From: a virus
IMG/VR virus record: IMGVR_UViG_3300022744_000001
Span: 322,022-386,021 of that record
Length of the DNA: 64,000 nt
Direction: 5' to 3' (one strand)
This document shows, one piece after another, positions 4,987 through 36,766 of the stretch (position 1 is its first letter; each line of letters starts with the position of its first letter). The position numbers and the translations under genes are program-made. The notes under the pieces are model-generated. The model made no database searches. It saw only the letters and a program-made list of their open reading frames with translations, and was not told the DNA's origin.

Positions 4987-7158
4987 TCAAATTGACCTCA
5001 CCGTTGCGCACCCCTGCAAAGGGAGCCCCGTGATCCAGTCAAGGGAGGGAGAGCCCGGGGGCTGCATGGGAAGCCCTCGAGCAACCCCGAGAACCGCCGC
5101 GGCCCCACCAAGCAGAATCTGTGGGGCCGTCAGGCTGATTGCCACGGACGCCACCATGTTGATCGCGAGCCCGGCTGTGAGCGAGATGGCGCCCGACGCC
5201 GCCGAAAGGGACATGGCCCCTGCTGCGGTCGAAAGGGACACTGCACCCGCCGTGGTGGACATGGAAATAGCCCCCGTCCCCACCGTCACCGACCAGGCCC
5301 CCGCCACGTTGTTGAACGAGGTCGCCCCTGCTGTCACCGTGGTGGTTCGTGCACCCGCCACAAGCGTCTCGGCGATGTTCCCGAGAAGGACCGTCGTTGT
5401 CCGCCCGCCCGTCGCAATGGTCTCCGTGATGAGCTGGGCGTACATAGCCTGGCTCTTGCCCGAGATTACCTCGTTCTTGGAGCCATAGTTCCCCGTGAAG
5501 GAGTTCAGGGCGTTGATGCTCACAGTGCTCGCCTGCGAGCTGTGGCCGCCATCCACGGTCATCTGGTAGGCGCCGTTAACGACCTCGGTCAGGTTACCCG
5601 AGATGGCCGTTTCCGCGTTGCCCTGCACGTCCATGCTGTGGGCCACGTCGTCCGTGCTGTTGCCGTTGCCCCGGTAGACGTTCTTGATTGCCCCACGGAA
5701 GTTGGTCGTGATGCACTGCCCGTCTGCGTTCGGGCCAACGTCGAGGAACAAGCCGCCCTCGAGAGTCAAATGCAGGGAGACGCGGTCTGGAGTTGAGGCC
5801 CCGACACGCATCTTGATTGCGCCCTCGGAGTTGATCTCTGCCGAGACATTCTTGGAGCTGTAGTTCTCCACCGTCGAGCCCGGCATGTTGACGAACAATT
5901 TGCCCTGCTTCGAAACCGCCATGGCGAATTCGCTACGAGACGCGCTACGGGGCGGGAGCAACCGGAAGAGGTACCCGCCAGCCATCGTGAGGGCTTCATC
6001 GACTGCCGTGGAGGGTGGGCGCAAGCACTCCTCGAGCCGGAAGCCCGCGGGGGAGGCCGTCTGGTCAAAGTCTTCGAAGAGCTTCGGCTTGAGCACTCGA
6101 GCGTATTGCCGCTGCCCCTGAGTGGAGAAGGCATCGTTCCCCACAACTGTCCCAAAGACCTGCTCGATGTAAGCCCGGGGGCGGTCCATCGAGAAGCCAT
6201 CGACCTCGTCGAGAACCTCCTGTCGCAACTCCGTGTCGTGACGGATCTCCATGCGACGCTCGGTAAAAGCCCGCAGAGGCCCGCCGTTGAGCGCGTCTTC
6301 GAAGTCCACCGCCGGAGCTTCGGAGGGGACGAAAACCTGCCGCCCGTTCGTGTAAGTCGTGGGCGGAAACTCATTGCTGTCGTTGATGCGGTCGAGCACC
6401 ACGCCACTCGTGTTCGAGAAGGTGGAACCCTGAACGCCCGCCGCCGCAAGCTCCTCACGCCCAAAGTAGCGTTCGGACGAATCCTTCAAAGTCTTCGTGG
6501 GGTTACCGTCCTTGTCCGTACGGAAAATCCAGGACGGGAGGTTCATCGCGCCGCGGCGGACGGCACCGGAAAACACGTACGCGGCCGAGTCTGAGGCAAC
6601 CTGGTTGATCGCCTGGGACACCAGGGTCCGATCCACATCCCGAAGCTCGAGGGAGTCCCCGGCCCGGTTCATCAACCGGACGTCCTTGGACAGCTGGAAC
6701 TCCGCGCCAGAGGCCGACATACCGACGATGTCCCCCTGCTTGCCTCGAATGCGCTTGTACCGGATCGTGGGCCCGTACAGCTTGGCCAGGTCCGCTGCGT
6801 CCGCGGGGTCCACCTCGGAAGAGGGTACCGGAGAGAACGGGTCGTACCGAAGCCCCGCCAAGCTCCCTACCGGAACGTAGCCAAGAATCACCGCGTCGTA
6901 GATCTGCTTGCTTCGACGCCGGTACCCAATAATGACCAAGCTGTTGACCTCGGGGATACCCCCAAGGAACGACCGAGGGCCGCACATCGCCTGAGTGAGG
7001 TCCAGCTCGAACCGTTCATCACTCCCCATGATGCGGACGTCCGCCTTCAAATGGTGCTCGTCTACCCGGGTAAGGATACCCAAGCGGGTCGAGTTGAACG
7101 GAGAGTCCCCGGTTGAGAACTCCTTGTCTGGAACCTTGCCGTACGGAACTTTCGGCAT
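4987..7158 (-). CDS. Baseplate central spike (gp5/VgrG-like)
   Basis: OB-fold-like N-terminus (GGIPEVNSLVIIGY); C-terminal S/T/G/A beta-helix-type repeats (GAISMSTTAGAVSLSTAAGAMSLSAASGAISLTAG); follows the hub gene. Confidence 0.75.
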   Translation of the reverse strand: MPKVPYGKVPDKEFSTGDSPFNSTRLGILTRVDEHHLKADVRIMGSDERFELDLTQAMCGPRSFLGGIPEVNSLVIIGYRRRSKQIYDAVILGYVPVGSLAGLRYDPFSPVPSSEVDPADAADLAKLYGPTIRYKRIRGKQGDIVGMSASGAEFQLSKDVRLMNRAGDSLELRDVDRTLVSQAINQVASDSAAYVFSGAVRRGAMNLPSWIFRTDKDGNPTKTLKDSSERYFGREELAAAGVQGSTFSNTSGVVLDRINDSNEFPPTTYTNGRQVFVPSEAPAVDFEDALNGGPLRAFTERRMEIRHDTELRQEVLDEVDGFSMDRPRAYIEQVFGTVVGNDAFSTQGQRQYARVLKPKLFEDFDQTASPAGFRLEECLRPPSTAVDEALTMAGGYLFRLLPPRSASRSEFAMAVSKQGKLFVNMPGSTVENYSSKNVSAEINSEGAIKMRVGASTPDRVSLHLTLEGGLFLDVGPNADGQCITTNFRGAIKNVYRGNGNSTDDVAHSMDVQGNAETAISGNLTEVVNGAYQMTVDGGHSSQASTVSINALNSFTGNYGSKNEVISGKSQAMYAQLITETIATGGRTTTVLLGNIAETLVAGARTTTVTAGATSFNNVAGAWSVTVGTGAISMSTTAGAVSLSTAAGAMSLSAASGAISLTAGLAINMVASVAISLTAPQILLGGAAAVLGVARGLPMQPPGSPSLDWITGLPLQGCATVRSI

Positions 7159-22248: not shown

Positions 22249-25200
22249 TCAGTTCCCCTGATAGTCGTAGTCGTTGATCGCTTTGAGGTTCAGGCTTTCT
22301 ACCCCTGCTGCCTCATGGAAGAGCCGGTCCATGGTCGCCGAATCGTACTCCCCGGCCACCTTGACCTCGCCCTCCTCAGCGCCTTGCTTGGGGACGTTCT
22401 CCCCTGGCACCAACCCAGCTTCGTGCACGAACATGCTGAGCACTGGCTGAGTGTCCCCGGGGAACTTCTTGACGCGCTCCTGCGGGCACAGGATCTCCAA
22501 GTTCATGGCAGCACGAGTCAAAGCCACATACGCCAGGTTGCGCTCGGCTTTGAGCTGGGCCTCCAGCTCCTCGGGGGTGGGCGGGGGCTCGTCGGGCTTG
22601 GGCTTGCGTTCCATGGGGAACTTGCCGGGCGCCATGACCACGGTAACGTTCTTCCACTCGGAGCCCTTGACCGAGTGCACGGTGGACAAAACAACCGCCG
22701 GAGGCTTCTCCCTACGCTGACCCGGGTCAGTGATCTTGGCCTGCTCCTTGGCGAACTTGTCCGGGTCGATACGCAAGGTAGAAGCGAGCTGCTCATAGCG
22801 CTCAAGCTTGCGGATGTACCCGTCCGCCGTGCTGGGGTCCGTGTTGTTCTTCTGGTCGTTCGCGTTGGGCTCAGACAAAGCGAAGAGGAACTCCACCGCG
22901 CCAAGGTTCTTGGTCAAGTTGGGGTCATTCTTGAGGACCGGCTTGCCGTCCTCAGTCACTCGCGTGATCTGACCTTCCTCGTTGATCTCGACCTTGGTGC
23001 TGTCCTCCTCTACCTCGTCGGCTTCGGCATCATCCGGAGCGAACGAAAGAACGTCCGAGGAGATCTGCTGGCGAAGAGTCGTGGTCGTGACCGTGGACTT
23101 CTGACCGTCCCAGCCATACATCTCCGAGGGCATCTCATCAAGAATGTAGTTGAGGAGGTCCTTCGTGGACTTCGGCCCTTCCTTCAACCAACCGCGCAGA
23201 GCCTTGATGTTGGCCCCAAGCCCGCGAAGGCTGTTACCCAGCTCCTCAACCCGCTTTTCGTACATCCACTCAGCGGTACGTTGGGGTTTGCCCTTTTCGA
23301 TAGCCTTGCTGATGATCTTGAGGCGGAAGGGCAGCTTGAGCTGTTCAGCCAGAGTGCCCACATAGCGGCTTTCAAGCAACATCATAGGGTTGATGTTCTT
23401 GGGGTCAACACGCTCGATGCGGGCCACCTCGTCCAAAGCCTCCTTGACCGCTTTGGCGACGTCGTCCGGGCCCATGAAGGTGCCCTTGTCCGGCTTCATG
23501 ATGCAGGCGACAAGAGCCTCACGGAGCTTGTCGTAGTCCGCGCCCTGGGCCAACTCGATGTGCCCCAGAACCGCCTTGGACTCGGGGGCCTCCATGAAGC
23601 CCTTGCCACCCTTCCGGATGTAAGGGATCTCGTTGATGATGCAGGCGGTTTCGAAGTTGTGCAGCTCGGCGTTGGTACGAGCGAGAACGGCGTACTCCTC
23701 GGGCTGAGCGCCCTCGACGTCCATCGCCTTGCGGACACGCCCCAAAGTCTCAATCGCTCCAGACGTGTACGTCACCGGTGCGTCCACCACGATCGAAGCG
23801 TTGCCACGCCCCTTCTTCGGGTTGGCTCGAGCCTCCATCGGAATCTGATCTTCGTTGTTGGCGATGAGGCGATTGGCGGCCTCCACGATTTCCGCTTCGC
23901 AACGGTAGTTCGTGCGAATCATGCGGATCTTCCAACCAGGTTTGCCGTTCAACCCGATGAAGAGTTCCGGACGAGCCCCACGGAACTGGTAGATGGACTG
24001 CTTGTCGTCGCCCACCATCCAGATGGACTTGCCGTCCGAACCGTCCGTGATGTGCTCGGACAGCATCTCGAAAATCTGGTGCTGAACCAGATTCAGGTCC
24101 TGGCACTCATCGACCATGAAATGGTCGAACAGCCGCTGGATCTCTTGGCGGGCCTTGGGGTCGCGACGCAGAATGTCGCGGAACACCACCACCATATCGT
24201 CCAGGTCACCCAGGCGCTGCCCACCCTTGCGGTGCTCCTTCAAGAAGTAGTTGTAGGACTCCGGCGAGCACGGCGGCCTCCAATTGGGGAGGTCGCCCTT
24301 GATTCCGAGGTAGAGTTCGTACCAGAGGTACGCCTGACCCTCCGCCTCCGACCTCACCGATGCCTTGGCTTGCTCGAGGTTGATGTCGTTGCCACGCCAC
24401 TTGCCCACGATCTGCTTGACCTTGGCGGCCTTGGGCGGGTTGTCAAACCACTCCGCAGGGAAGCCAGTGCGGGCCGCCAACTGCGTCCCTTCGCACTCGC
24501 TCCAGATCTTCCGAATCACGTTGGCGAGCTTGGAGGGGTTGATGGTGTTCGCGCCCCTCTTGGGCGGAGCAATCAGGTTGGGCGCCTTCAACATGGCCTT
24601 TTCGGCCGGAGTCCCATACCCAGGGGTGTTCTGGTCACCCGTGATGAACTTGTAGAAGAGCTGGTGCATCGTACCGACGCGAACTCCAGCACCCACCGAC
24701 CCAAGACGCTTGGCAACCTTTTCTTTCAGCTCTTCTGCCGCTCGAGAGTTGAACGAACAGGCCAGGATTCGAGCCGGGTTGACCCCGCGATCCTTGACCA
24801 GGTAAGCCATACGGCCCACAAGGGTCGTGGACTTACCCGCACCAGCACCCGCGGCCACGAGGACTTTGCCGTCGGTCATCGCCGCGGCAAGCTGCTCGGG
24901 GTCGTTTGCCATGCCCTGCAAAGAGGGCGGGATGTTGGCGGGCAGCTCAGGGTCGGTCACCACGGAGACCGCCACAGCCTTGGCTACGCCAACAACTTCG
25001 GCGCGAGTCAGGGGGCGGTCTTCCTCGGGGTTCATCCGATTGATGACCTTGCGAGCGATTTGAGTAGCCTCTGCCTCAACCTTGGTGAGCAAAGCGTTTT
25101 GCTTCTCGCCTTGGTCGATGGACTCCTCAGAAGCTGTGTCGCCGCCGTCTTGCTCAACCCTGGACTTGAAGACCTCGCCTACCTCATCCGAGGAGCCTCG

Positions 25201-25836
25201 AGTAGCAACCTGGACGTCATTCAGCGCGGTCGAAGACGGCTGGGCTGCGTCCGAAGCCGTGTCAATCCAAGCCTCAAGCCGCTTGTTGCGAAGAACAATC
25301 CCCGCGAACTTGGTGAGGGCTGCATCCTCGTCGGTCATCTCGGACGCCTCTATGGCCTCCTTGACCTGCTTGCGGGCCTTGCTCGAGTCGTCGAACACGG
25401 CCTTCATAGTCGTAGCGCCACCCCGGGAGAGAATCAGCTTGATGGTATCGGAGCGGCGGTTGAACCCATCGATATTGGCGGGAGCACGAACAGCAGAAGC
25501 AAGCATATTGATGCTCGCCTTGGACGTCAGGTGGCTCTTGAGGTACTCCGCGACATGCTCCAGGTGACGACGCTCAGCGGCGCGCAGGAGGCTAACTCCG
25601 GTTCGAAGAACCGAGTCGTTCAAGTCGCTCGAGCCAAACCGCTCTTCCAGGTAGCGGCGGTACACATCGAAGGCCAGCAGGAAGATGACGTAGTCAGCGA
25701 TGACCAACTCTTCAAGAGCCTTGTCGATCTCCGGGTCGGGATCTTCCGCCAACACCTGTCGAACCGCAGCCTGAGCCGCGCCGTAGTCATAGGAAAGCGT
25801 CGAAACACTTGCTACGGGATTCATCTTGTCTGCCAT
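22249..25836 (-). CDS. uvrD: UvrD/PcrA/Rep-type SF1A DNA helicase with ~300-aa N-terminal extension
   Basis: Motifs present: AGAGAGKSTT (I), CSFNSRAAEEL (Ia), VDECQD (II), GDDKQSIYQFRGA (III), TNYRC (IV), VLARTN, STVHSVKGSEW (V), NLAYVALTRA (VI). Start placed at ATG 25836 (GAGG upstream) rather than 25950. Confidence 0.93.
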   Translation of the reverse strand: MADKMNPVASVSTLSYDYGAAQAAVRQVLAEDPDPEIDKALEELVIADYVIFLLAFDVYRRYLEERFGSSDLNDSVLRTGVSLLRAAERRHLEHVAEYLKSHLTSKASINMLASAVRAPANIDGFNRRSDTIKLILSRGGATTMKAVFDDSSKARKQVKEAIEASEMTDEDAALTKFAGIVLRNKRLEAWIDTASDAAQPSSTALNDVQVATRGSSDEVGEVFKSRVEQDGGDTASEESIDQGEKQNALLTKVEAEATQIARKVINRMNPEEDRPLTRAEVVGVAKAVAVSVVTDPELPANIPPSLQGMANDPEQLAAAMTDGKVLVAAGAGAGKSTTLVGRMAYLVKDRGVNPARILACSFNSRAAEELKEKVAKRLGSVGAGVRVGTMHQLFYKFITGDQNTPGYGTPAEKAMLKAPNLIAPPKRGANTINPSKLANVIRKIWSECEGTQLAARTGFPAEWFDNPPKAAKVKQIVGKWRGNDINLEQAKASVRSEAEGQAYLWYELYLGIKGDLPNWRPPCSPESYNYFLKEHRKGGQRLGDLDDMVVVFRDILRRDPKARQEIQRLFDHFMVDECQDLNLVQHQIFEMLSEHITDGSDGKSIWMVGDDKQSIYQFRGARPELFIGLNGKPGWKIRMIRTNYRCEAEIVEAANRLIANNEDQIPMEARANPKKGRGNASIVVDAPVTYTSGAIETLGRVRKAMDVEGAQPEEYAVLARTNAELHNFETACIINEIPYIRKGGKGFMEAPESKAVLGHIELAQGADYDKLREALVACIMKPDKGTFMGPDDVAKAVKEALDEVARIERVDPKNINPMMLLESRYVGTLAEQLKLPFRLKIISKAIEKGKPQRTAEWMYEKRVEELGNSLRGLGANIKALRGWLKEGPKSTKDLLNYILDEMPSEMYGWDGQKSTVTTTTLRQQISSDVLSFAPDDAEADEVEEDSTKVEINEEGQITRVTEDGKPVLKNDPNLTKNLGAVEFLFALSEPNANDQKNNTDPSTADGYIRKLERYEQLASTLRIDPDKFAKEQAKITDPGQRREKPPAVVLSTVHSVKGSEWKNVTVVMAPGKFPMERKPKPDEPPPTPEELEAQLKAERNLAYVALTRAAMNLEILCPQERVKKFPGDTQPVLSMFVHEAGLVPGENVPKQGAEEGEVKVAGEYDSATMDRLFHEAAGVESLNLKAINDYDYQGN

Positions 25837-25940
25837 GTCCATCCTCGTGCCCGTGAGCGCGGTAGTTCTCCCTCTGAGAGAACACATAGAAGCTTTCACC
25901 GCTTCGTAACAAACTTCGCTCAGGTTACAGGAAAACCATG

Positions 25941-25986
25941 AAAAAATCAAGGCCCCCGTGAGGTGTCCCCACGGAGGCCCTAGATT
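25941..25986 (-). terminator. Intrinsic terminator after sheath gene
   Basis: Minus: GGCCTCCGTGGGG-ACA-CCTCACGGGGGCC then TTGATTTTTT. Confidence 0.7.
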
Positions 25987-30385: not shown

Positions 30386-30468
30386 GTTCAATCCGATCCG
30401 ATCTGGGTATGTCCCACCACGGCCCGACAGGACTGAGTAGGTTCACCGTACAGCGGGTAACGAAAGCA

Positions 30469-30903
30469 TTATTGACGATCCGGACGAACTTTCAGGTCCG
30501 TTGCCAATTTTACCAACCGCCTACGTCCTTCACGCTGCCCTGGACTCATCGAGGTGTAGTCCATGTAGCCTTCCCCATCTTGGCGTGCGAGCTGCGAGAC
30601 GCCCGAGTTCTTCCGGACCTTCTCCTTGATAGCGGCGCGCTTGGTATAGGTCTCCCACCGACCCTCTGCACTACGACCAACCACTTTGTCCGCAGAAGGG
30701 TAGTCGATATCATGCACCCCCGTGTTTGCCGGGGTCCCAATGTCCTTGGGCGCCCCAGCAAAGGCGAACCCGAAACCCTGACCTTGAAAAAGTCGGGGAG
30801 CCTCCTCCGAGCATGAGGGGCAAGGGTGAGTTGGGTGGTCGTCCATTTTCAGCACGCGGTCGAACCGCAGGCCGCATTCACATTCAAATGTATATTTTGG
30901 CAT
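30469..30903 (-). CDS. FmdB-type zinc-ribbon protein
   Basis: MPKYTFECECG...HPCPSC N-terminus characteristic of FmdB-like ribbons. Confidence 0.8.
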   Translation of the reverse strand: MPKYTFECECGLRFDRVLKMDDHPTHPCPSCSEEAPRLFQGQGFGFAFAGAPKDIGTPANTGVHDIDYPSADKVVGRSAEGRWETYTKRAAIKEKVRKNSGVSQLARQDGEGYMDYTSMSPGQREGRRRLVKLATDLKVRPDRQ

Positions 30904-32099
30904 TATGTGATCCGTTCAAATGCGTTGTTTCTACCCACGTTGATTGGCACAGTGAGGAAGAACAGTCCCTGGGAAAGGGGTTGAAGCGACGACGTGCTAG
31001 GCCCTGTGCGGTCCGGGTTCACCTGTGCTTCAAGTGCAGCCGTAGTTGGAGACACACGGCTGATTGTAAAGGGCAGGGGCACATGGATCTCCCAGTCAGC
31101 CTGCATTTGGACCGATAGAGAGGCCATGTAGTAGTTGGTTTCCGCGGTCTCGTCGTAAGTGTCCTCAGCCTCGCCGCCCATGGACACGTCAGTGATTTCG
31201 ATGCCCTCGTTGGCCAGAGTCGCTCGCTTCTGCCCCCACAAACTCATGACGGCAAAGTCAGCGATCTCCTCCATCTGAATGGGGTCGGTCGCAATCACAT
31301 CGAGGTCAAATGACGCCTCGAACTTGCCGCCGAAGGCGTTCGCGGTATCAACCCGGTCCTCATAGACCACTACCGCGACTTTGTCCCCGGGGCGACCCCG
31401 CTTCCCGAAAGCCAGAATGACCCCAGGCAAAGTTTTGTAGTCGGCAGTGTTCCACTTCCAATCGAACGGACCCAAGGAGTCCAAGTCGTAGCGGTAGTCG
31501 GCCCCGATGACCGAGTTCGGCATGAGCTTGGTTATGAAAGTGACCAGGCCCGTGCTGTAGTTGACTGTGTAGTCGCGGCCCTCGCGCAAGAGGTACCGCC
31601 CGTTCTCCCACAACCGAACCGTGCCTTGAATCGGCACTTGGTCGAGTTGAGCTTCATGCTCAACCCCCGAGGAAACCATCAACAGCGTCTCGTTGGTCAC
31701 GGTGATCATGGGCTTCACCGAGAAGGTACCCACTTCACCGGGAAGGGTGGGGGCCGTAAGACACTCGAGGATGTAAACCCCGGACTGAATGGGCATCATG
31801 TCGTCATTCGCCCGAAGCGTCGCGGCATCCTCTTTGGCCCACTCGAGCAAATACGCGGGCTGCTCAACGTAGGCGAGCATGACCTTGCTGGACACCGTCC
31901 CAAGGTAGTTTTCGCTACTGAGCTGAACCTTGTTGGCGCTCGAGCCCTTGACGACGATGCCAAACTGCGGGCGCTCGTCGAAGGCGAACTTGTTCTGCAC
32001 CCAAGGCACCACCTTCTCGTAGACTGGGTGTCTACTGAAAGAGTCCTGCAACTCCAGGATGAGGCGGCGCTTGAGCGAGGAAGTCAGGTAGTAGTACAC
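30903..32099 (-). CDS. Tail terminator/completion-like protein with inserted Ig-like domain
   Basis: Likely GTG start at 32099 with AGGAG SD; lies upstream of sheath; FEASFDLDVIATDPIQMEEIADF C-terminal domain. Confidence 0.6.
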   Translation of the reverse strand: MYYYLTSSLKRRLILELQDSFSRHPVYEKVVPWVQNKFAFDERPQFGIVVKGSSANKVQLSSENYLGTVSSKVMLAYVEQPAYLLEWAKEDAATLRANDDMMPIQSGVYILECLTAPTLPGEVGTFSVKPMITVTNETLLMVSSGVEHEAQLDQVPIQGTVRLWENGRYLLREGRDYTVNYSTGLVTFITKLMPNSVIGADYRYDLDSLGPFDWKWNTADYKTLPGVILAFGKRGRPGDKVAVVVYEDRVDTANAFGGKFEASFDLDVIATDPIQMEEIADFAVMSLWGQKRATLANEGIEITDVSMGGEAEDTYDETAETNYYMASLSVQMQADWEIHVPLPFTISRVSPTTAALEAQVNPDRTGPSTSSLQPLSQGLFFLTVPINVGRNNAFERIT

Positions 32100-32127
32100 G
32101 GGGCTCCTGGGGGAGCCCGGGTATCGG

Positions 32128-33147
32128 CTACTCGTGCTCCTGCATAGCCAAAACCAAAAGACCTTCTGCAACCGATGTCATGGGGTCCTTGGCCCGGCGG
32201 ATTCCGGAGATGGGGATGGGGAAACCCTTCTTCACGGAGTTGAACTCCTCCTCGAAGACCTGCATGAACCCATCTGCTCGAGTCGTACCTCCCGAGACTA
32301 CGAAGGGGATCGGTTCGGGAAGGTCGATCGTGTTGCGCTCCATCTTGAAGCGCTTGGCAATCTGCTCGAGCGTGTACCGAATCAGAGCCCGAATGTACAG
32401 GGCGATAGCTTCCGCTTCTCGGTTGTCGCTCGAGGGCTTGGAGACGTCGAAGCCGCCCTTCTCCTTGATCGAACATACCCGGGTAGCCGTCGAACCCAGC
32501 GCCTTGGCCGCATGGCCGTCAATCCAGTCGCCGCCACGGGCCAGGGAGAAGGACATGCCCATCATCGTTTGGAAGGACAAGGCCACGTTGCACATGCCCG
32601 ACCCGTAGCTGATCGAGACGCCGGAGAAGTTGGTGTCGGCACACTGGCTGTAAATGATAGCCATGGCCTCATTCATCGGGTGCGCCGTGTACCCATGCTC
32701 CTCGACGATCTTGCGGAAGACCTCGGTATGGTACAGGACGTTCTGGTCAGGCATGTCGATGGGGTCAGCGGGCACGCTGTAAAAGCAGTGCTCCTTGGGC
32801 ACCACCGGCTCCCCGAGGACGTTGTGGATGATGTACGAAAGAACTCGCTGGGCATCCAACTCGCCCGCGGAAATGAGGCCCTTGGCCAGCGGCCGACGAA
32901 CCTCGCGCTTGAAGATGTTGGCCATGTTCAAAGCGCTGTCACCTACCACGATGAGCTGGTCGGACCAGTCCGGTTCGTAGTAGTCCACCTTGGACATCTT
33001 CAGGATTTTCTTCGTCTCCGGGTCCAAGTCCAAGAAGGCGTCGCGGATACGTCGAGTCTTGACCACACCCTCTTCGTGACGGGCCGAGACGATATTCATG
33101 GTACCGATGTCGATGCCGACACCGGGAATGCGGTTATTGGTAGTCAT
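32128..33147 (-). CDS. Actin-superfamily ATPase, volactin-like
   Basis: Phosphate-1 GIDIGTMNIVSAR, connect-1 NEAMAIIYS, phosphate-2 SISYGSGMCNV, ARGGDWID, adenosine VVSGGT, connect-2 DPMTSVAEG. YSVPADPID...LYH and NIF..E.RRP match the haloarchaeal volactin pattern as I recall it. Confidence 0.88.
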   Translation of the reverse strand: MTTNNRIPGVGIDIGTMNIVSARHEEGVVKTRRIRDAFLDLDPETKKILKMSKVDYYEPDWSDQLIVVGDSALNMANIFKREVRRPLAKGLISAGELDAQRVLSYIIHNVLGEPVVPKEHCFYSVPADPIDMPDQNVLYHTEVFRKIVEEHGYTAHPMNEAMAIIYSQCADTNFSGVSISYGSGMCNVALSFQTMMGMSFSLARGGDWIDGHAAKALGSTATRVCSIKEKGGFDVSKPSSDNREAEAIALYIRALIRYTLEQIAKRFKMERNTIDLPEPIPFVVSGGTTRADGFMQVFEEEFNSVKKGFPIPISGIRRAKDPMTSVAEGLLVLAMQEHE

Positions 33148-33149
33148 TG

Positions 33150-33163
33150 CCCTATCTACACCG
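33150..33163 (-). promoter_or_regulatory. CGGTGTA promoter-like motif, probably leaderless, before actin gene
   Basis: CGGTGTAGATAGGG; 9 nt between heptamer and ATG; motif recurs at 21593, 36779 and 54465. Confidence 0.55.
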
Positions 33164-33866
33164 AGGGATTCAAAAGTCGCTGCTGGAGAAGGTACCTGTG
33201 TTCCTCATGCTTGTCCTCGATGCCTGCGATGAGGTTGTCCGTACCACGGCTCAACGAGCTGTTGTTCTTCAACAGCTCAACGATCTTGGTGACGCCGAGG
33301 CTCAACAGGGCCTCAGCTTCCAAGCTCTTCTGTACCAGCTCCGCCGCCGACTCCCCTGGCTGCCCCAGCGAGTTCAGGATATCGGCCACACAGCTTGCTT
33401 GAGCCCGGAAGTCGGCGATCAAAGTCGCCCCGGTGCTCCCCACGGCACGTTCTGCAACCGAGTCAATCTCCGGAAGCATGCCGTTGTAGAGCCGCTCAAA
33501 GAGCAGGTGGTCCCCGTAGGAGGTGTTGCCTTTCGTAACCCAGTGGTGGGTCTGGTGCACCATTGCCACCGCACGAAGGAACACGAGCAGCCCAGCCATC
33601 TCGGTACCTGGGGACGCAGCGAACACACTGAAAACCTGCGAGGCGGCCTTTAGCCGAGCCGAAGGCAAATAAGGTGGCCCATGGAGGTACGGATCATAGG
33701 ACGAGGGGTCCTGCCAGATCGCCTGGGTAGCGTCGTTAGAATAGGGGGGCGACGCTACTCCAGGGAAGTCAGGACCCGCCCTGAACAGCGGCTCCTGGGC
33801 CACTTTGGATGTGCCGGGCGACGTGCGCGCGACCAACGAGCTTGTCTTGTCGAGCAGGGATTTCAT
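33156..33866 (-). CDS. Dps/ferritin-like protein with N-terminal extension
   Basis: Dps signature HQTHHWVTKG..SYGDHLLFERLY...IDSVAER, C-terminal EDKHEEHRYLL; about 85 extra N-terminal residues. Confidence 0.85.
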   Translation of the reverse strand: MKSLLDKTSSLVARTSPGTSKVAQEPLFRAGPDFPGVASPPYSNDATQAIWQDPSSYDPYLHGPPYLPSARLKAASQVFSVFAASPGTEMAGLLVFLRAVAMVHQTHHWVTKGNTSYGDHLLFERLYNGMLPEIDSVAERAVGSTGATLIADFRAQASCVADILNSLGQPGESAAELVQKSLEAEALLSLGVTKIVELLKNNSSLSRGTDNLIAGIEDKHEEHRYLLQQRLLNPSV

Positions 33867-33900
33867 CGCGGGCCTCCGCCCTTAACGGAATACAGAAACA

Positions 33901-34545
33901 CTATTGATCTTTGCTCTTGCCTTTACGAAGGCCCTTCAGAGCCTTCGAAGCATCGGCAAGAGAGCCTGCATCCGAGGCTTCCTCTTTGAGGGAGACTCGG
34001 GCTTCGCCATTGTTGTCGGACTTGATCTGGGACGGGATGTAGATTGGAGCAGAGTCATCCACGTCGAGACCCGAAGACGCCGGAGCGCCCGTCACATTTT
34101 GAATGACCGTGGTCGGGCGAGACTTCACCAGCTCGAGGATGGCGTCCAACTTTGCATCCTTCCCCGTCGCCTCTTTCAGCTCCCGCTCGAGCCGCCCCAC
34201 CTCTCCTTTGAGGTGGACGTTCAACCCGTAAAGGTCGCCATTCTCCTTGATGAGCTGGGCGTTCTCTTCGCGGAGAGTTTCGTTTTCCAGGCTCAACCGG
34301 TCACGCTCCTCTTGAAGCTTGGGCACGGGAGGGGCCGCATGCGAGGGAGCGATAACCCGCAACACGCTATTGGCCTTGAGCTGAAAAATCACCCCTTGGG
34401 AGAGCAGCCTCCAGAGGTCTTTGGACTTGACTGCTTGAGCCCCCAAAATCGGAGTGGCTTCCCCTTTGGGTACCATCACGCCGATGTCCTCGATGAGCTT
34501 GTCCTCGCTCACTCCACATACGATCATATCTCCATTGCTGCTCAT
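33901..34545 (-). CDS. Coiled-coil protein (candidate actin partner)
   Basis: Heptad segment LQEERDRLSLENETLREENAQLIKENGDL...LERELKE; basic amphipathic C-terminus LADASKALKGLRKGK; ATG 34545 with AAGGA SD. Confidence 0.7.
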   Translation of the reverse strand: MSSNGDMIVCGVSEDKLIEDIGVMVPKGEATPILGAQAVKSKDLWRLLSQGVIFQLKANSVLRVIAPSHAAPPVPKLQEERDRLSLENETLREENAQLIKENGDLYGLNVHLKGEVGRLERELKEATGKDAKLDAILELVKSRPTTVIQNVTGAPASSGLDVDDSAPIYIPSQIKSDNNGEARVSLKEEASDAGSLADASKALKGLRKGKSKDQ

Positions 34546-34556
34546 CTGGGTTCCTT

Positions 34557-35054
34557 TCAAAGGCGTAGCTTGCGCTGCCTAGCAGCCTTAGACACCACCT
34601 TCTGGACCTCCTCGACCATAGACTTCCGGATCTGCTTCTTGGCCTCTTCTTTGGCCTTCTCCACAAAGTCGTAGGGCGGGCGACCAGGGTGGACCCACTT
34701 CCCGTCCCGCATCGATTTAGGGGTTGCGGTCCGAAAGATCAACTCCCCCTCCTCAGTGATGATGGGGATAGGGGCTCGAGCCTTCACGAGCCAGGACATC
34801 TGCTTGTTCTTGCGCCCCCGCATCATGTTTGTGAAACCGGGGTGGGTCGAGTAAATCGTCAACGACGAGGGGCCGACCTCAATCTGAATAGCCTTGGAAA
34901 AGGCTCGCTTCGCTCGGTCAGAAAACGTGGACTGGAACAGTTTGTGACGAAGCCGAGCGAGAACGCTGGCCTTCACGCGGCGAAGCGCTCGCTCTGGGGT
35001 TACATCGAGGTCCCGAACAAGCGGTTTGCCATAGACTGATCCAAAACGGTCCAT
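34557..35054 (-). CDS. Basic neck/tail-completion-like protein
   Basis: 165 aa, W.HPG..P..F motif (KWVHPGRPPYDFVEKA) as in phage virion morphogenesis proteins; overlaps upstream stop. Confidence 0.55.
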   Translation of the reverse strand: MDRFGSVYGKPLVRDLDVTPERALRRVKASVLARLRHKLFQSTFSDRAKRAFSKAIQIEVGPSSLTIYSTHPGFTNMMRGRKNKQMSWLVKARAPIPIITEEGELIFRTATPKSMRDGKWVHPGRPPYDFVEKAKEEAKKQIRKSMVEEVQKVVSKAARQRKLRL

Positions 35055-36406
35055 CAGTAGGTCGTGTTCTTCCAGGTGGTGGTGCGACCACGGTACTCAC
35101 GCTCGTCCCCAATCAATGGGTGATCGGTGACGTCATTCGGCGCCCCGAACTCAGGACCACGAGGCGCGAACTGCGTAGCAACGAACTTCACCGGGTTGCC
35201 CACCGGTACCTTGTACCGAATGTCCTTCTCGTCAAAGGACCCGATGTTGAAGTGCTGCTGCATCACCATGCCGCGGTTCGAGGGCATTCGAACCCCACCA
35301 ATTGAGAAGCGCTCCCCATTGAGCTTCATGATGAAGTCGCGGTGGCTGAGGATTGGTTGGGGGCCCGTCCAGACCTCATACACGTGCTCCTGGTTCCGGC
35401 CCATTTCCTTCTGAGAGACCTTCACCTCTGCATCGTCCGGGGCAACGATGATGTCGTAAGGACCCTCGTAGCCTCCCACGTACCCTGTCCCAAAGCACTT
35501 GAGACAATCGGAGAGAGGTTGCTTGTGGTGATCGGAAATGCACACGCACGGGACCCCAGTGTTCTTGCGAAGAAACACCTTCACCCGCTCGCCACCCTGC
35601 TCGAGGATGAAACGATTACGCCGAATGGCCTCCCGCCAAATCCAATCCAGCTTCTCGACCTCGAACGTGTTCGTAGCCGCGGCGTGCTCGAGAGGTGTCT
35701 CCACCAAGTCCTGGGGCTGCACCAGGGCAAGGTTGCACCCAACCGGCACCCCAACCGTCGTGACTCGGTAGAAGACACGCTGATTGAGGTCAGTCTTGAG
35801 CAAAGACCTCGTGTACCGGTAGGTGCAAGTCACCCGGCTCTGAGGGGTTGGGGCGACCACGGGGTAGTAGGTTTGCTTGGAGGTGTCCGGGTAGAGGTTG
35901 ACGTCGATCTCGACCTCTCCGGTACTCCCGTTGACCCGCAACACTCGAGCTTCAACCCCGTCAACGAAAACTCGAACGTCTCGAGCATCCTTCGTCGGGA
36001 TTCGATTCTGAGCCCCCTCTGCAACGATGGGGTAGTGAAGCGTCTTGAAGACGTACCGCTTTTCGTCTCGACCCGTAGAAGCCACTCCGAAGATCGTGAA
36101 GTTGTCGGTCACGTCTTCATCAACCACCAGCTCATTGTCGGTTTGGTCTCTCCAAAACGTGGACCCAACCGGCAAATCCGTGATGCGGGAGTACGGCCCA
36201 AACTCGGAGTCGAAGCTACGGTACACGTTGACGCCGAGGATCTGGAATCGGCTGTTAAGCATGAGATGGGACGGGTCATCCCACCGAAGGTCGATGAGAT
36301 TCCTCGTCCCATCCATCATGAACAGGTTGAGAGGTGGAGCTGGCCAGGGGGTCTTGGTCAGCTCCAACGGGTCAACACTGCGGTCTCGATCTCCACCTAG
36401 CGCCAT
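35054..36406 (-). CDS. Neck / head-closure protein with Zn finger
   Basis: ILEQGGERVKVFLRKNTGVPCVC...CLKCFGTGYVGGY; located in neck block; N-terminal FN3/Ig-like segments. Confidence 0.6.
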   Translation of the reverse strand: MALGGDRDRSVDPLELTKTPWPAPPLNLFMMDGTRNLIDLRWDDPSHLMLNSRFQILGVNVYRSFDSEFGPYSRITDLPVGSTFWRDQTDNELVVDEDVTDNFTIFGVASTGRDEKRYVFKTLHYPIVAEGAQNRIPTKDARDVRVFVDGVEARVLRVNGSTGEVEIDVNLYPDTSKQTYYPVVAPTPQSRVTCTYRYTRSLLKTDLNQRVFYRVTTVGVPVGCNLALVQPQDLVETPLEHAAATNTFEVEKLDWIWREAIRRNRFILEQGGERVKVFLRKNTGVPCVCISDHHKQPLSDCLKCFGTGYVGGYEGPYDIIVAPDDAEVKVSQKEMGRNQEHVYEVWTGPQPILSHRDFIMKLNGERFSIGGVRMPSNRGMVMQQHFNIGSFDEKDIRYKVPVGNPVKFVATQFAPRGPEFGAPNDVTDHPLIGDEREYRGRTTTWKNTTY

Positions 36407-36439
36407 AGGCCCTCTTCCAAGGGCCCAGGGATAAGGAAA

Positions 36440-36766
36440 TCAAGCCGAAGCAGGTTGCGTGTTCGGAAGCGGCTCAACCAGGGTGATAACGCCCGTCTGA
36501 GCGTCAATCCGAACGGGGTGCGCCGGGGGAATCCCACGGGACACCAGAACCGTCTCGAACAGACGTTGGCGCTCGAGGTCCACGTTCTGCGCCGCACGGA
36601 GCGTCTTGATCTTCTCCTGCTCGAGGTCAAGGATGCGCTCGGCCAGCTGCATACGAGCCCCCTGCATCTCCTCGAAACGCTTCAACGTCTGCGCGTCGAG
36701 GGGATCGTTGGCTGTCAACTTGGGTTGTTCTTGAGTCTGCGTCTCTGTGCTCATCTGAGGCTCCAT
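36440..36766 (-). CDS. Small coiled-coil hypothetical protein
   Basis: Start ATG 36766 (12 nt after CGGTGTA) or 36754; the track's extension to 37093 overlaps the adaptor gene. Confidence 0.65.
   Translation of the reverse strand: MEPQMSTETQTQEQPKLTANDPLDAQTLKRFEEMQGARMQLAERILDLEQEKIKTLRAAQNVDLERQRLFETVLVSRGIPPAHPVRIDAQTGVITLVEPLPNTQPASA

What the first reader, a model, noticed from the sequence alone, without database searches (positions are those of the whole stretch)
32128..34545. Candidate phage actin system: volactin-like ATPase with a nearby coiled-coil protein inside the virion gene block
Seen: a 339-aa protein with all actin-fold motifs, its own CGGTGTA motif, and, two genes upstream, a coiled-coil protein ending in a basic amphipathic helix. 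Known: described phage cytoskeletons are mainly tubulin-based (PhuZ, TubZ), with AlpC as a rare actin example. Volactin is a haloarchaeal cell-shape actin; from memory its motifs (GTMNI, PADPID, LYH, G.GM.NV, ARGGDWID) fit better than MreB, ParM or FtsA. Inference: a filament plus adaptor that positions phage DNA or capsids, or remodels the host cell. Its location between neck and tail-terminator genes suggests a link to assembly.
Basis: partly seen in the sequence, partly recalled or inferred. Interest (0 to 1): 0.85.

Follow-up and report, generated by a model that had tools for sequence, protein, structure and literature searches.

The report
Huge-phage volactin actin with docking adaptor
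A 448-kb uncultured phage encodes its own actin of the archaeal "volactin" family plus a coiled-coil partner whose conserved tail always travels with that actin, so these giant phages probably build actin filaments of their own, something no paper I could search describes.

Summary
ORF 32128-33147(-) is a full-length Pfam Volactin (PF25216) protein (E 1.2e-70; MreB below cut-off). Its AF2 model (pLDDT 96) is closest to filament-forming actins: MamK, BeeR, MreB, F-actin. The window lies in a complete 447.8-kb phage genome with no tubulin.

The coiled-coil gene (33901-34545, -) is the actin's conserved partner. In most related huge phages it abuts the actin; the Dps-like gene between them here is a lineage-specific insertion. 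In distant phages that lack this structural block, and in chromosomal Planctomycetota loci, the gene just upstream of the volactin still ends in the same basic amphipathic peptide. Its N-terminal part, however, changes: coiled coil, Zn-ribbon or transmembrane helix.

CGGTGTA is a real genome-wide gene-start signal. It marks the non-structural gene class, not late genes.

Polymerisation, peptide docking, cargo and timing are inferred, not shown. The labels "neck" and "tail terminator" for the flanking genes are not confirmed.

This scan has already noted the same system on other DNA (107 notes, at least 91 genomes). I found no published description in phages. Verdict: a new variant of a known kind (actin-like filament plus adaptor); interest 0.68.

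The parts
32128..33147 (-). Volactin-family actin-fold ATPase, 339 aa
   Evidence: PF25216 E 1.2e-70, full length. AF2 pLDDT 96.4, pTM 0.93. MamK filament Z 28.6, BeeR 27.5, MreB 25.9, F-actin about 25. Phosphate-1, phosphate-2, catalytic Glu and adenosine-motif residues are invariant or nearly so across 95 homologs. Lowest dN in the block.
33157..33163 (-). CGGTGTA gene-start motif, 9 nt upstream of the actin ATG, overlapping the Dps-like gene's stop codon
   Evidence: Genome-wide, 82 of 137 copies precede an ATG-led ORF by 8-10 nt (control mean 3.6). 75 of the 82 lie at 0-275 kb and only 3 at 275-425 kb. The larger motif-led genes are non-structural.
33156..33866 (-). Dps/ferritin-like gene (236 aa) inserted between adaptor and actin in this subclade
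   Evidence: Weak Ferritin, DUF5856, phrog_3636 and phrog_858 hits. Present in only 49 of 186 viral actin loci and absent from the commonest layout and from LR745208.
33901..34545 (-). Adaptor (CC219): N-terminal alpha/beta domain, coiled coil, disordered linker with an aPxFIPS motif, C-terminal basic amphipathic helix
   Evidence: Ortholog alignment and AF2 model. Present in 84 of 88 close and 20 of 26 intermediate loci, and usually abuts the actin. It is the only protein in this genome with the C-terminal module (E 8e-17).
33904..33984 (-). C-terminal docking-peptide module of the adaptor (last 27 residues; invariant L208 and R212)
   Evidence: The iterated profile hits 142 of 28,207 ORFs, all within 2.5 kb upstream of an actin on the same strand. 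A pattern defined on this clade matches 8 of 27 abutting ORFs against 1 of 889 others in unseen distant loci, p 1.6e-12. hhalign against Planctomycetota adaptors gives E 5.9e-4 over 27 C-terminal columns.
34557..35054 (-). Upstream neighbour g34557 (165 aa), a possible Neck1 or tail-completion protein
   Evidence: Only a weak phrog_5 hit at E 6e-4. No PDB hit with the ortholog profile. Syntenic in 117 of 186 loci.
30903..32096 (-). Downstream neighbour g30903 (about 397 aa), a conserved protein with weak virion-type signals
   Evidence: DUF2460 E 1.8e-3. GTA distal tail protein E 0.54. phrog_11431 'virion structural protein' in 3 of 9 orthologs. All 63 loci anchored on this gene also carry the actin and adaptor.

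Best explanation
This is a two-gene phage cytoskeletal module. The 339-aa protein is a genuine volactin-family actin. It most likely binds and hydrolyses ATP and polymerises into dynamic filaments, as its Haloferax relative does in vivo.

The protein encoded two genes upstream is its dedicated adaptor. It is probably dimerised by a long coiled coil. It would use a conserved basic amphipathic helix at its extreme C-terminus to dock on the actin, and its phage-specific N-terminal domain to hold a cargo.

The module is a core gene pair embedded in the virion-morphogenesis block of a large clade of 0.3-0.6-Mb phages that lack tubulin. The most likely job is therefore organising or transporting virion parts or phage DNA during assembly.

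The actin also carries the start signal typical of the phage's non-structural genes, so it may be made earlier than, or independently of, its structural neighbours.

Shown here: family membership, fold, conserved active-site motifs, purifying selection, and conserved linkage with a modular adaptor peptide in phages and cells. Inferred: polymerisation, peptide docking, cargo and timing.
For: - Family and fold: PF25216 at 239 bits. A confident actin-fold model whose best matches are filament structures. Nucleotide-binding residues are conserved across 95 homologs.
- Published behaviour of the family: H. volcanii volactin forms dynamic filaments in vivo (PMC10869688).
- Genome context: no tubulin in the 447.8-kb genome.
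- Spread: the actin is widespread in huge phages. IMG/VR scans returned 26, then 333 and 214 matching stretches, on contigs up to 619 kb. It is universal where the block is present: 63 of 63 loci. It has the lowest dN in the block.
- Adaptor linkage: the commonest layout has the adaptor abutting the actin. All 142 profile hits lie upstream of an actin. The peptide is enriched at the C-terminus of the abutting ORF in unseen distant loci, p 1.6e-12.
- Modularity: the same peptide follows a transmembrane helix, a Zn-ribbon or a coiled coil.
- Cellular counterpart: chromosomal Planctomycetota volactins have an upstream coiled-coil protein ending in the same kind of peptide, with hhalign E 5.9e-4.
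- Literature parallel: in Haloferax a CdpA-like membrane protein neighbours volactin (PMC12126565).
Against: - No experiment or multimer model was available, so docking is inferred only from linkage and conservation.
- The peptide alignments are short: 16-27 columns, with hhalign probabilities of 1-29%.
- Within the window's clade the whole block is syntenic, so adjacency alone cannot separate 'partner of the actin' from 'member of the virion block'. No natural actin-less variant was found.
- DnaK scores Z 24.4, not far below the actins.
- The phosphate-2 motif has Ser where most actins have Asp. This is a family trait of unknown kinetic effect.
- The adaptor's N-terminal domain has no known fold or function.
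- The timing inferred from the motif is untested.
Confidence: 0.6

Rival explanations
1. The actin-fold protein does not polymerise. It is an Hsp70-like assembly ATPase or chaperone for building the very large virion, comparable to the Hsp70 homologue of closteroviruses.
For: It sits among genes with virion-type signals. DnaK nucleotide-binding domains score Z 24.4, and viral Hsp70 homologues are among the BFVD matches.
Against: No Hsp70 Pfam hit and no substrate-binding domain. The family match is to volactin, which polymerises in vivo. The top structural matches are filament subunits. A dedicated adaptor with variable anchoring domains fits a filament system better than a chaperone.
Confidence: 0.1
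2. The coiled-coil protein is a virion scaffold, neck or fibre protein unrelated to the actin. Its adjacency reflects only the frozen gene order of the structural module.
For: The whole block is syntenic in every close relative. Coiled coils with basic C-terminal helices occur in phage scaffolding proteins (general knowledge).
Against: The C-terminal peptide stays with the ORF abutting the actin in phages that lack the block, on proteins with quite different N-terminal parts, and in chromosomal Planctomycetota loci. No profile hit lies anywhere but upstream of an actin.
Confidence: 0.12
3. It is a ParMRC/AlpAC-like DNA-positioning machine. The adaptor binds phage DNA and the filament moves or segregates genomes, for replication-site positioning or for carriage as a plasmid-like episome.
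For: Dynamic instability like that of ParM is reported for volactin. Planctomycetota volactins are often fused to a ParB-type HTH domain. AlpC is a precedent for a phage actin that moves DNA (PMC4446434).
Against: No ParM/StbA or ParR family hit. No centromere-like iterated repeats within about 3 kb. The adaptor's N-terminal domain shows no DNA-binding signature. In other phages the same peptide sits on a membrane anchor.
Confidence: 0.1
4. It is a host-takeover cytoskeleton. The filaments reshape or enlarge the host cell or its membranes rather than handling virion parts.
For: The actin carries the CGGTGTA start signal of the non-structural gene class. Cellular volactin controls cell shape. 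Related phages tether the actin to the membrane through a transmembrane adaptor.
Against: The location inside the morphogenesis block is invariant in this clade. The adaptor here has no membrane anchor.
Confidence: 0.12

Closest known systems
Volactin (VolA, HVO_2015) of Haloferax volcanii, Pfam PF25216, with its CdpA-like membrane neighbour HVO_2016
   Same: Same Pfam family at 239 bits, same size and same motifs. Volactin forms dynamic filaments anchored to the membrane by their tips (PMC10869688). It has an adjacent candidate anchoring protein, noted in PMC12126565.
   Different: This one is encoded by a phage inside a virion gene block. Its partner is a soluble coiled-coil protein, not a four-TM CdpA-like protein, and shows no such Pfam hit. 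I could not obtain the Haloferax sequences, so there is no direct alignment or tree placement against VolA. The phage clade is separate from the cellular clades that I could sample.
ParMRC plasmid partition and AlpAC of prophage CGP3 (actin-like filament plus adaptor plus DNA site)
   Same: The logic is the same: an actin-like ATPase next to a small adaptor gene that is thought to dock on the filament and link it to a cargo. AlpC is the one characterised phage actin (PMC4446434, PMC5539076).
   Different: No sequence-family relationship (no ParM/StbA hit). No centromere repeats. The adaptor is not a recognisable DNA-binding protein. The module is embedded in structural genes.
PhuZ/TubZ tubulin spindles of jumbo phages
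   Same: A phage-encoded cytomotive filament in a very large phage. PhuZ positions the replication compartment and delivers capsids (PMC8314001).
   Different: A different superfamily (actin, not tubulin). This genome has no tubulin. No nucleus-shell gene was searched for.
MamK, BeeR and MreB (bacterial actins)
   Same: The best structural matches: Z 28.6, 27.5 and 25.9 with 281-304 residues aligned.
   Different: 16-21% identity. MreB_Mbl scores below Pfam's cut-off. No MreC/D, RodZ or magnetosome context.

Membership tests
Volactin family (Pfam PF25216) | Scores above the family HMM's gathering cut-off over the full length | tested here: met
   239 bits against a cut-off of 35, profile positions 3-321 of 321. 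The same result was obtained on the genome.
Volactin family (Pfam PF25216) | Actin/ASKHA fold with four subdomains and conserved phosphate-1, phosphate-2, catalytic and adenosine motifs | tested here: met
   AF2 pLDDT 96.4. Z 24-29 to actins. D13, G15, T16, E160, S180, G182, G184, G286 and G287 are invariant or at least 90% conserved.
Volactin family (Pfam PF25216) | Forms dynamic filaments | not testable with these tools
   Known only for H. volcanii VolA in vivo (PMC10869688). No multimer prediction or experiment was available.
Volactin family (Pfam PF25216) | Groups with H. volcanii VolA in a tree rather than with MreB or ParM | not tested
   No reference sequences for VolA, MreB or ParM could be fetched by reference. 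The tree holds only family members and shows the phage clade (97*) apart from the Planctomycetota clade (96*).
MreB/Mbl (PF06723) | Scores above the family cut-off | tested here: not met
   16.3 bits against a cut-off of 27, partial match only.
ParMRC-type partition system | ParM/StbA-family actin, a ParR-type adaptor, and iterated centromere repeats beside the operon | tested here: not met
   No ParM/StbA or ParR Pfam hit. Only chance-level two-copy repeats in 30400-36500.
Hsp70/DnaK | HSP70 family HMM match and a substrate-binding domain | tested here: not met
   No HSP70 hit. The protein is 339 aa, the nucleotide-binding fold only.
Volactin-adaptor gene pair (proposed here and in earlier scan notes) | The gene directly upstream of the actin ends in a basic amphipathic peptide of the form [VI]-x-x-A-x-x-x-L-x-x-L-[KR]-K | tested here: met
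   In this window the pair is split by the Dps-like insertion.

The most novel reading that the evidence does not exclude
The adaptor-plus-volactin pair is an ancient two-gene cytoskeletal cassette shared by archaea, Planctomycetota and related bacteria, and phages. A universal C-terminal docking helix lets interchangeable N-terminal modules (membrane anchor, Zn-ribbon, coiled coil with a cargo domain) tether the filament. A large clade of 0.3-0.6-Mb phages has made it a core part of virion assembly, an actin counterpart of the PhuZ tubulin spindle.
Probability: 0.4. Interest if true: 0.8.

Novelty: new variant of a known kind. Interest (0 to 1): 0.68.

Why it matters
Phage cytoskeletons are known almost entirely from tubulins (PhuZ, TubZ) and one prophage actin (AlpC). 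A strongly conserved actin with a modular docking adaptor, universal in a widespread clade of half-megabase phages, would add a second major type of viral cytoskeleton.

It would also name a candidate for the "unknown volactin-binding factors" that the volactin paper itself raises. It gives a concrete peptide-actin interaction to test in phages, Planctomycetota and haloarchaea alike.

The genome-wide CGGTGTA-N9-ATG signal also offers a handle on transcription classes in an uncultured huge phage.

Tried and rejected
- PDB sequence search with the actin: no hit. PHROGs: no family for the actin.
- BFVD: no close viral analogue; the best hit is Bacillus phage G Gp506 at 13% identity.
- No adaptor-actin fusion was found: the N-terminal extensions of cellular volactins do not contain the docking peptide.
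- HMMER iteration did not reach the short TM-type adaptors. hhalign between them and CC219 is marginal (E 0.036).
- The fold search with the adaptor model was swamped by the long helix.
- dN/dS ratios are unreliable because dS is saturated.
- Profile searches of the two flanking genes against the PDB gave nothing significant.
- The search for block-bearing phages without the actin found none, 0 of 63, so that co-loss test could not discriminate.
- A Planctomycetota host was considered, because the nearest named cellular homologs are from that phylum. The tree, however, puts the phage and Planctomycetota clades apart, so this remains only a hint.
- Model coordinates are not exposed to scripts, so conservation could not be mapped onto the actin surface.
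Full report
**Where the window lies.** It is bases 322022-386021 of a 447,761-bp IMG/VR virus record with direct terminal repeats, estimated complete. GC is about 59%, and the window holds no tRNA. The genes of the region all lie on the minus strand and are tightly packed. σ70-type promoters and intrinsic terminators do not exceed chance.

**The observation.**
- It matches Pfam PF25216 (Volactin) over the whole profile at 239 bits, E 1.2e-70. MreB_Mbl reaches 16 bits against a cut-off of 27.
- There is no PHROG family and no PDB sequence relative.
- An AF2 model built on 95 homologs is very confident (pLDDT 96.4, pTM 0.93).
- Its best matches are filament-forming actins: MamK filament Z 28.6 (rmsd 3.0, 294 aligned), BeeR filament 27.5, MreB 25-26, F-actin about 25, FtsA 24.5. 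DnaK follows at 24.4.
- The residues of the phosphate-1, phosphate-2, catalytic-Glu and adenosine motifs are invariant or at least 90% conserved across the family sample. Phosphate-2 has Ser where most actins have Asp, as a family trait.
- The genome has no tubulin.

**Distribution.**
- The word-indexed search found 1,771 relatives. The exhaustive search found 1,036 representative clusters.
- In deposited phage genomes, the relatives are two uncultured huge phages: LR745208 (485 kb, 54% identity) and LR756511 (595 kb, 29%).
- IMG/VR scans returned 26 close loci, then 333 and 214 matching stretches. Many lie on contigs of 200-619 kb.
- In a 128-row tree the window's protein sits in a starred clade of viral contigs (99*) inside a 41-row clade (97*). 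That clade also holds LR745208 and three short contigs from assorted MAGs.
- Those three (L031-L033) and the short contig L030, left out of the tree, lie in assorted MAGs. L030, L031 and L033 carry genes of the phage structural block, so they are phage DNA binned wrongly.
- A separate starred clade (96*) holds chromosomal genes of Planctomycetota and Omnitrophota, at 40-45% identity on contigs up to 8 Mb.
- I could not fetch the Haloferax sequence, so its placement was not tested.

**The neighbours.**
- In all 26 close loci the order is g36787, g36440, g35054, g34557, the coiled-coil gene, (insert), the Dps-like gene, the actin, g30903, a Zn-ribbon gene, then a 1,425-aa protein.
- HMMs of these genes were run over 186 viral loci with an actin. 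The commonest layout is g35054 - g34557 - coiled-coil - actin - g30903 - Zn-ribbon - g26005 (51 loci).
- The layout with the Dps-like gene between the coiled-coil gene and the actin is restricted to the window's subclade.
- In LR745208 the coiled-coil gene overlaps the actin start and there is no Dps gene. So "two genes upstream" is a local derived state; the ancestral state is direct adjacency.
- Anchoring on the downstream gene instead, all 63 loci with enough upstream sequence hold both actin and adaptor. Both are core genes of the clade.
- The actin has the lowest dN of the block (0.10 against L002; neighbours 0.12-0.47). The adaptor has the highest. dS is saturated.

**Is the block structural?** Only in outline.
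- There is a head-maturation-protease hit (E 1e-9) and a tail-fibre hit (E 8e-10) elsewhere in the window.
- g34557 gives a weak Neck1/tail-completion hit (E 6e-4), and g35054 gives weak "virion structural" hits.
- For g30903 there is only DUF2460 (E 1.8e-3), a GTA distal-tail protein at E 0.54, and phrog_11431 in 3 of 9 orthologs.
- The labels "neck" and "tail terminator" are therefore not confirmed.

**The adaptor.**
- Twenty orthologs show a conserved N-terminal domain of about 70 aa, a variable coiled coil (LExENxxLR), a KLDxIL motif, an aPxFIPS motif and a C-terminal peptide with invariant L208 and R212.
- AF2 gives a confident α/β domain (residues 11-68), a helix at 79-147, a disordered stretch, and a C-terminal helix at 198-217.

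The key result came from the distant viral loci (actin HMM score below 350). My HMMs do not detect the structural block there.
- The ORF abutting the actin still ends in the same kind of peptide, such as …SASASKLAMLKKNK or …ADVAKQLTQLKNKG.
- Its N-terminal part, however, is a transmembrane helix (proteins of about 100 aa), a CxxC Zn-ribbon, or another coiled coil.

Three tests bear on this.
1. A profile of the C-terminal module, iterated over 28,207 ORFs, hits 142. All are on the actin's strand and within 2.5 kb upstream, and none is elsewhere.
2. A pattern defined only on the window's clade was applied to 32 loci the profile never reached. It matches 8 of 27 distinct abutting ORFs against 1 of 889 other ORFs (Fisher p 1.6e-12). 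Several non-matches are near misses. The one outside match sits upstream of a 463-aa ORF inserted before the actin.
3. In dozens of chromosomal Planctomycetota loci, the ORF just upstream of volactin is a coiled-coil protein ending …GGGIAANLARLKKLKGGG. hhalign of the phage adaptor profile against these aligns only the extreme C-termini, 27 columns, E 5.9e-4. The TM-type adaptors give E 0.018-0.036.

These alignments are short, and on their own they would be weak. Their weight comes from position: always the abutting gene, always its very end. In this phage's genome only CC219 has the module. The adaptor's N-terminal domain resembles only other hypothetical phage proteins.

**The CGGTGTA motif.**
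- In the window it is at chance.
- In the genome it occurs 137 times, against a mean of 62 for same-composition words. 82 copies lie 8-10 nt (mode 9) before an ATG opening an ORF of at least 40 aa, against a control mean of 3.6.
- 75 of the 82 lie at 0-275 kb on both strands, often in divergent pairs. Only three lie at 275-425 kb, and one of those is the actin.
- Motif-led ORFs are small (median 123 aa). The larger ones are a ClpX-like ATPase, an AAA ATPase, two metallophosphoesterases, a NUDIX/NrtR regulator and a DUF4419 protein.
- So the actin does have its own signal, but it is the signal of the non-structural class.
- That it is a promoter giving near-leaderless mRNAs, and that the class is early or middle, are inferences.
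- The nearest relatives keep the motif. More distant ones have a different upstream word.

**Literature.**
- Volactin was described in 2024 as a Haloferax actin that forms dynamic filaments and aids the rod-to-disk transition. [quoted passage not shown]
- The CdpA paper notes that a CdpA-like four-TM protein (HVO_2016) lies next to volactin, and that volactin appeared in CdpA pull-downs (log2FC 2.5, p 0.06) (PMC12126565).
- The 17 papers that mention volactin include none on phages. Searches for actins in huge or jumbo phages returned only AlpC, giant-virus viractins and reviews on PhuZ.
- The library lacks most subscription journals.

**Earlier notes of this scan.** The same system has been noted many times on other DNA (107 notes in at least 91 genomes), with follow-ups reaching a similar reading. 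I used those as leads only. The membrane-adaptor form, the intein and the CdpA-like neighbour were each checked here.

**Conclusion.**
- The finding is real, and the family assignment is secure.
- The best reading is a phage actin filament system with a modular docking adaptor, core to a large clade of huge phages.
- Not shown: polymerisation, docking, cargo and timing.
- The rivals are less likely but not excluded: a non-polymerising assembly ATPase, a partner that is really a virion scaffold, ParMRC-like DNA positioning (no centromere repeats), and host remodelling.

Noticed in passing
whole genome G000; in the window at 33157, 36779 and 54465 (- strand): A genome-wide gene-start signal, CGGTGTA-N8-10-ATG: 82 of 137 copies, with a consensus that is G-rich then C before the ATG. 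It is concentrated at 0-275 kb on both strands, often in divergent pairs, and is almost absent from the structural region. It may be a phage-RNAP promoter giving near-leaderless mRNAs.
   Followed up: partly
P0122, P0124, P0126, P0133 and other homologs of about 700 aa: Many huge-phage volactin homologs are interrupted at about residue 180-205 by a LAGLIDADG intein. P0122 hits both Intein_splicing and LAGLIDADG_3.
   Followed up: partly
L034-L109 (chromosomal Planctomycetota loci), upstream ORF ending about 50-120 nt before the actin: Planctomycetota volactins form a conserved pair with an upstream coiled-coil protein of 209-825 aa. It ends in LESNMDNIxVKxKxGGGIAANLARLKKLKGGG. This looks like an uncharacterised cellular cytoskeletal operon.
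   Followed up: partly
P0155, P0168 and the clade around them; P0173, P0260: Cellular volactins occur fused to an N-terminal ParB-type HTH domain, to a Wzz/BY-kinase module (a Planctomycetota MAG), or to a Ser/Thr kinase.
   Followed up: no
L058, L061, L073, L095, L108 (Omnitrophota): The actin (about 330 aa) is followed by a second ORF of about 480 aa that also hits the actin HMM. After that comes a protein of about 200 aa with a weak hit to the docking-peptide profile, so the gene order differs from the phage and Planctomycetota loci.
   Followed up: no
L030, L031, L033 (contigs in Betaproteobacteria, Actinomycetota and Legionellales MAGs): These short MAG contigs carry the phage structural block plus the actin, so they are huge-phage fragments binned into cellular genomes.
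   Followed up: yes
L264:5620-7011: A 463-aa ORF with Cys-rich, endonuclease-like motifs lies between the adaptor-like gene (5207-5614) and the actin. It may be a mobile insertion that splits the pair.
   Followed up: no
L250, L251, L254-L256, L263, L267 (distant phage clade): A strong Dps-like hit (about 150-170 bits) lies about 3 kb upstream of the actin in a clade that lacks the window's structural block. Dps-actin linkage therefore recurs independently of the insertion seen here.
   Followed up: no
window 22249-25950 (-): A 1,233-aa protein with a strong DNA-helicase hit (phrog_1967, E 1.7e-85) sits inside the putative tail gene region.
   Followed up: no
L159 and L188 (IMGVR_UViG_3300025141_000016, 297 kb): The same contig yields two actin loci with identical scores, at about 125-140 kb and at the contig end (287-297 kb). 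This is either a duplication or an assembly repeat.
   Followed up: no
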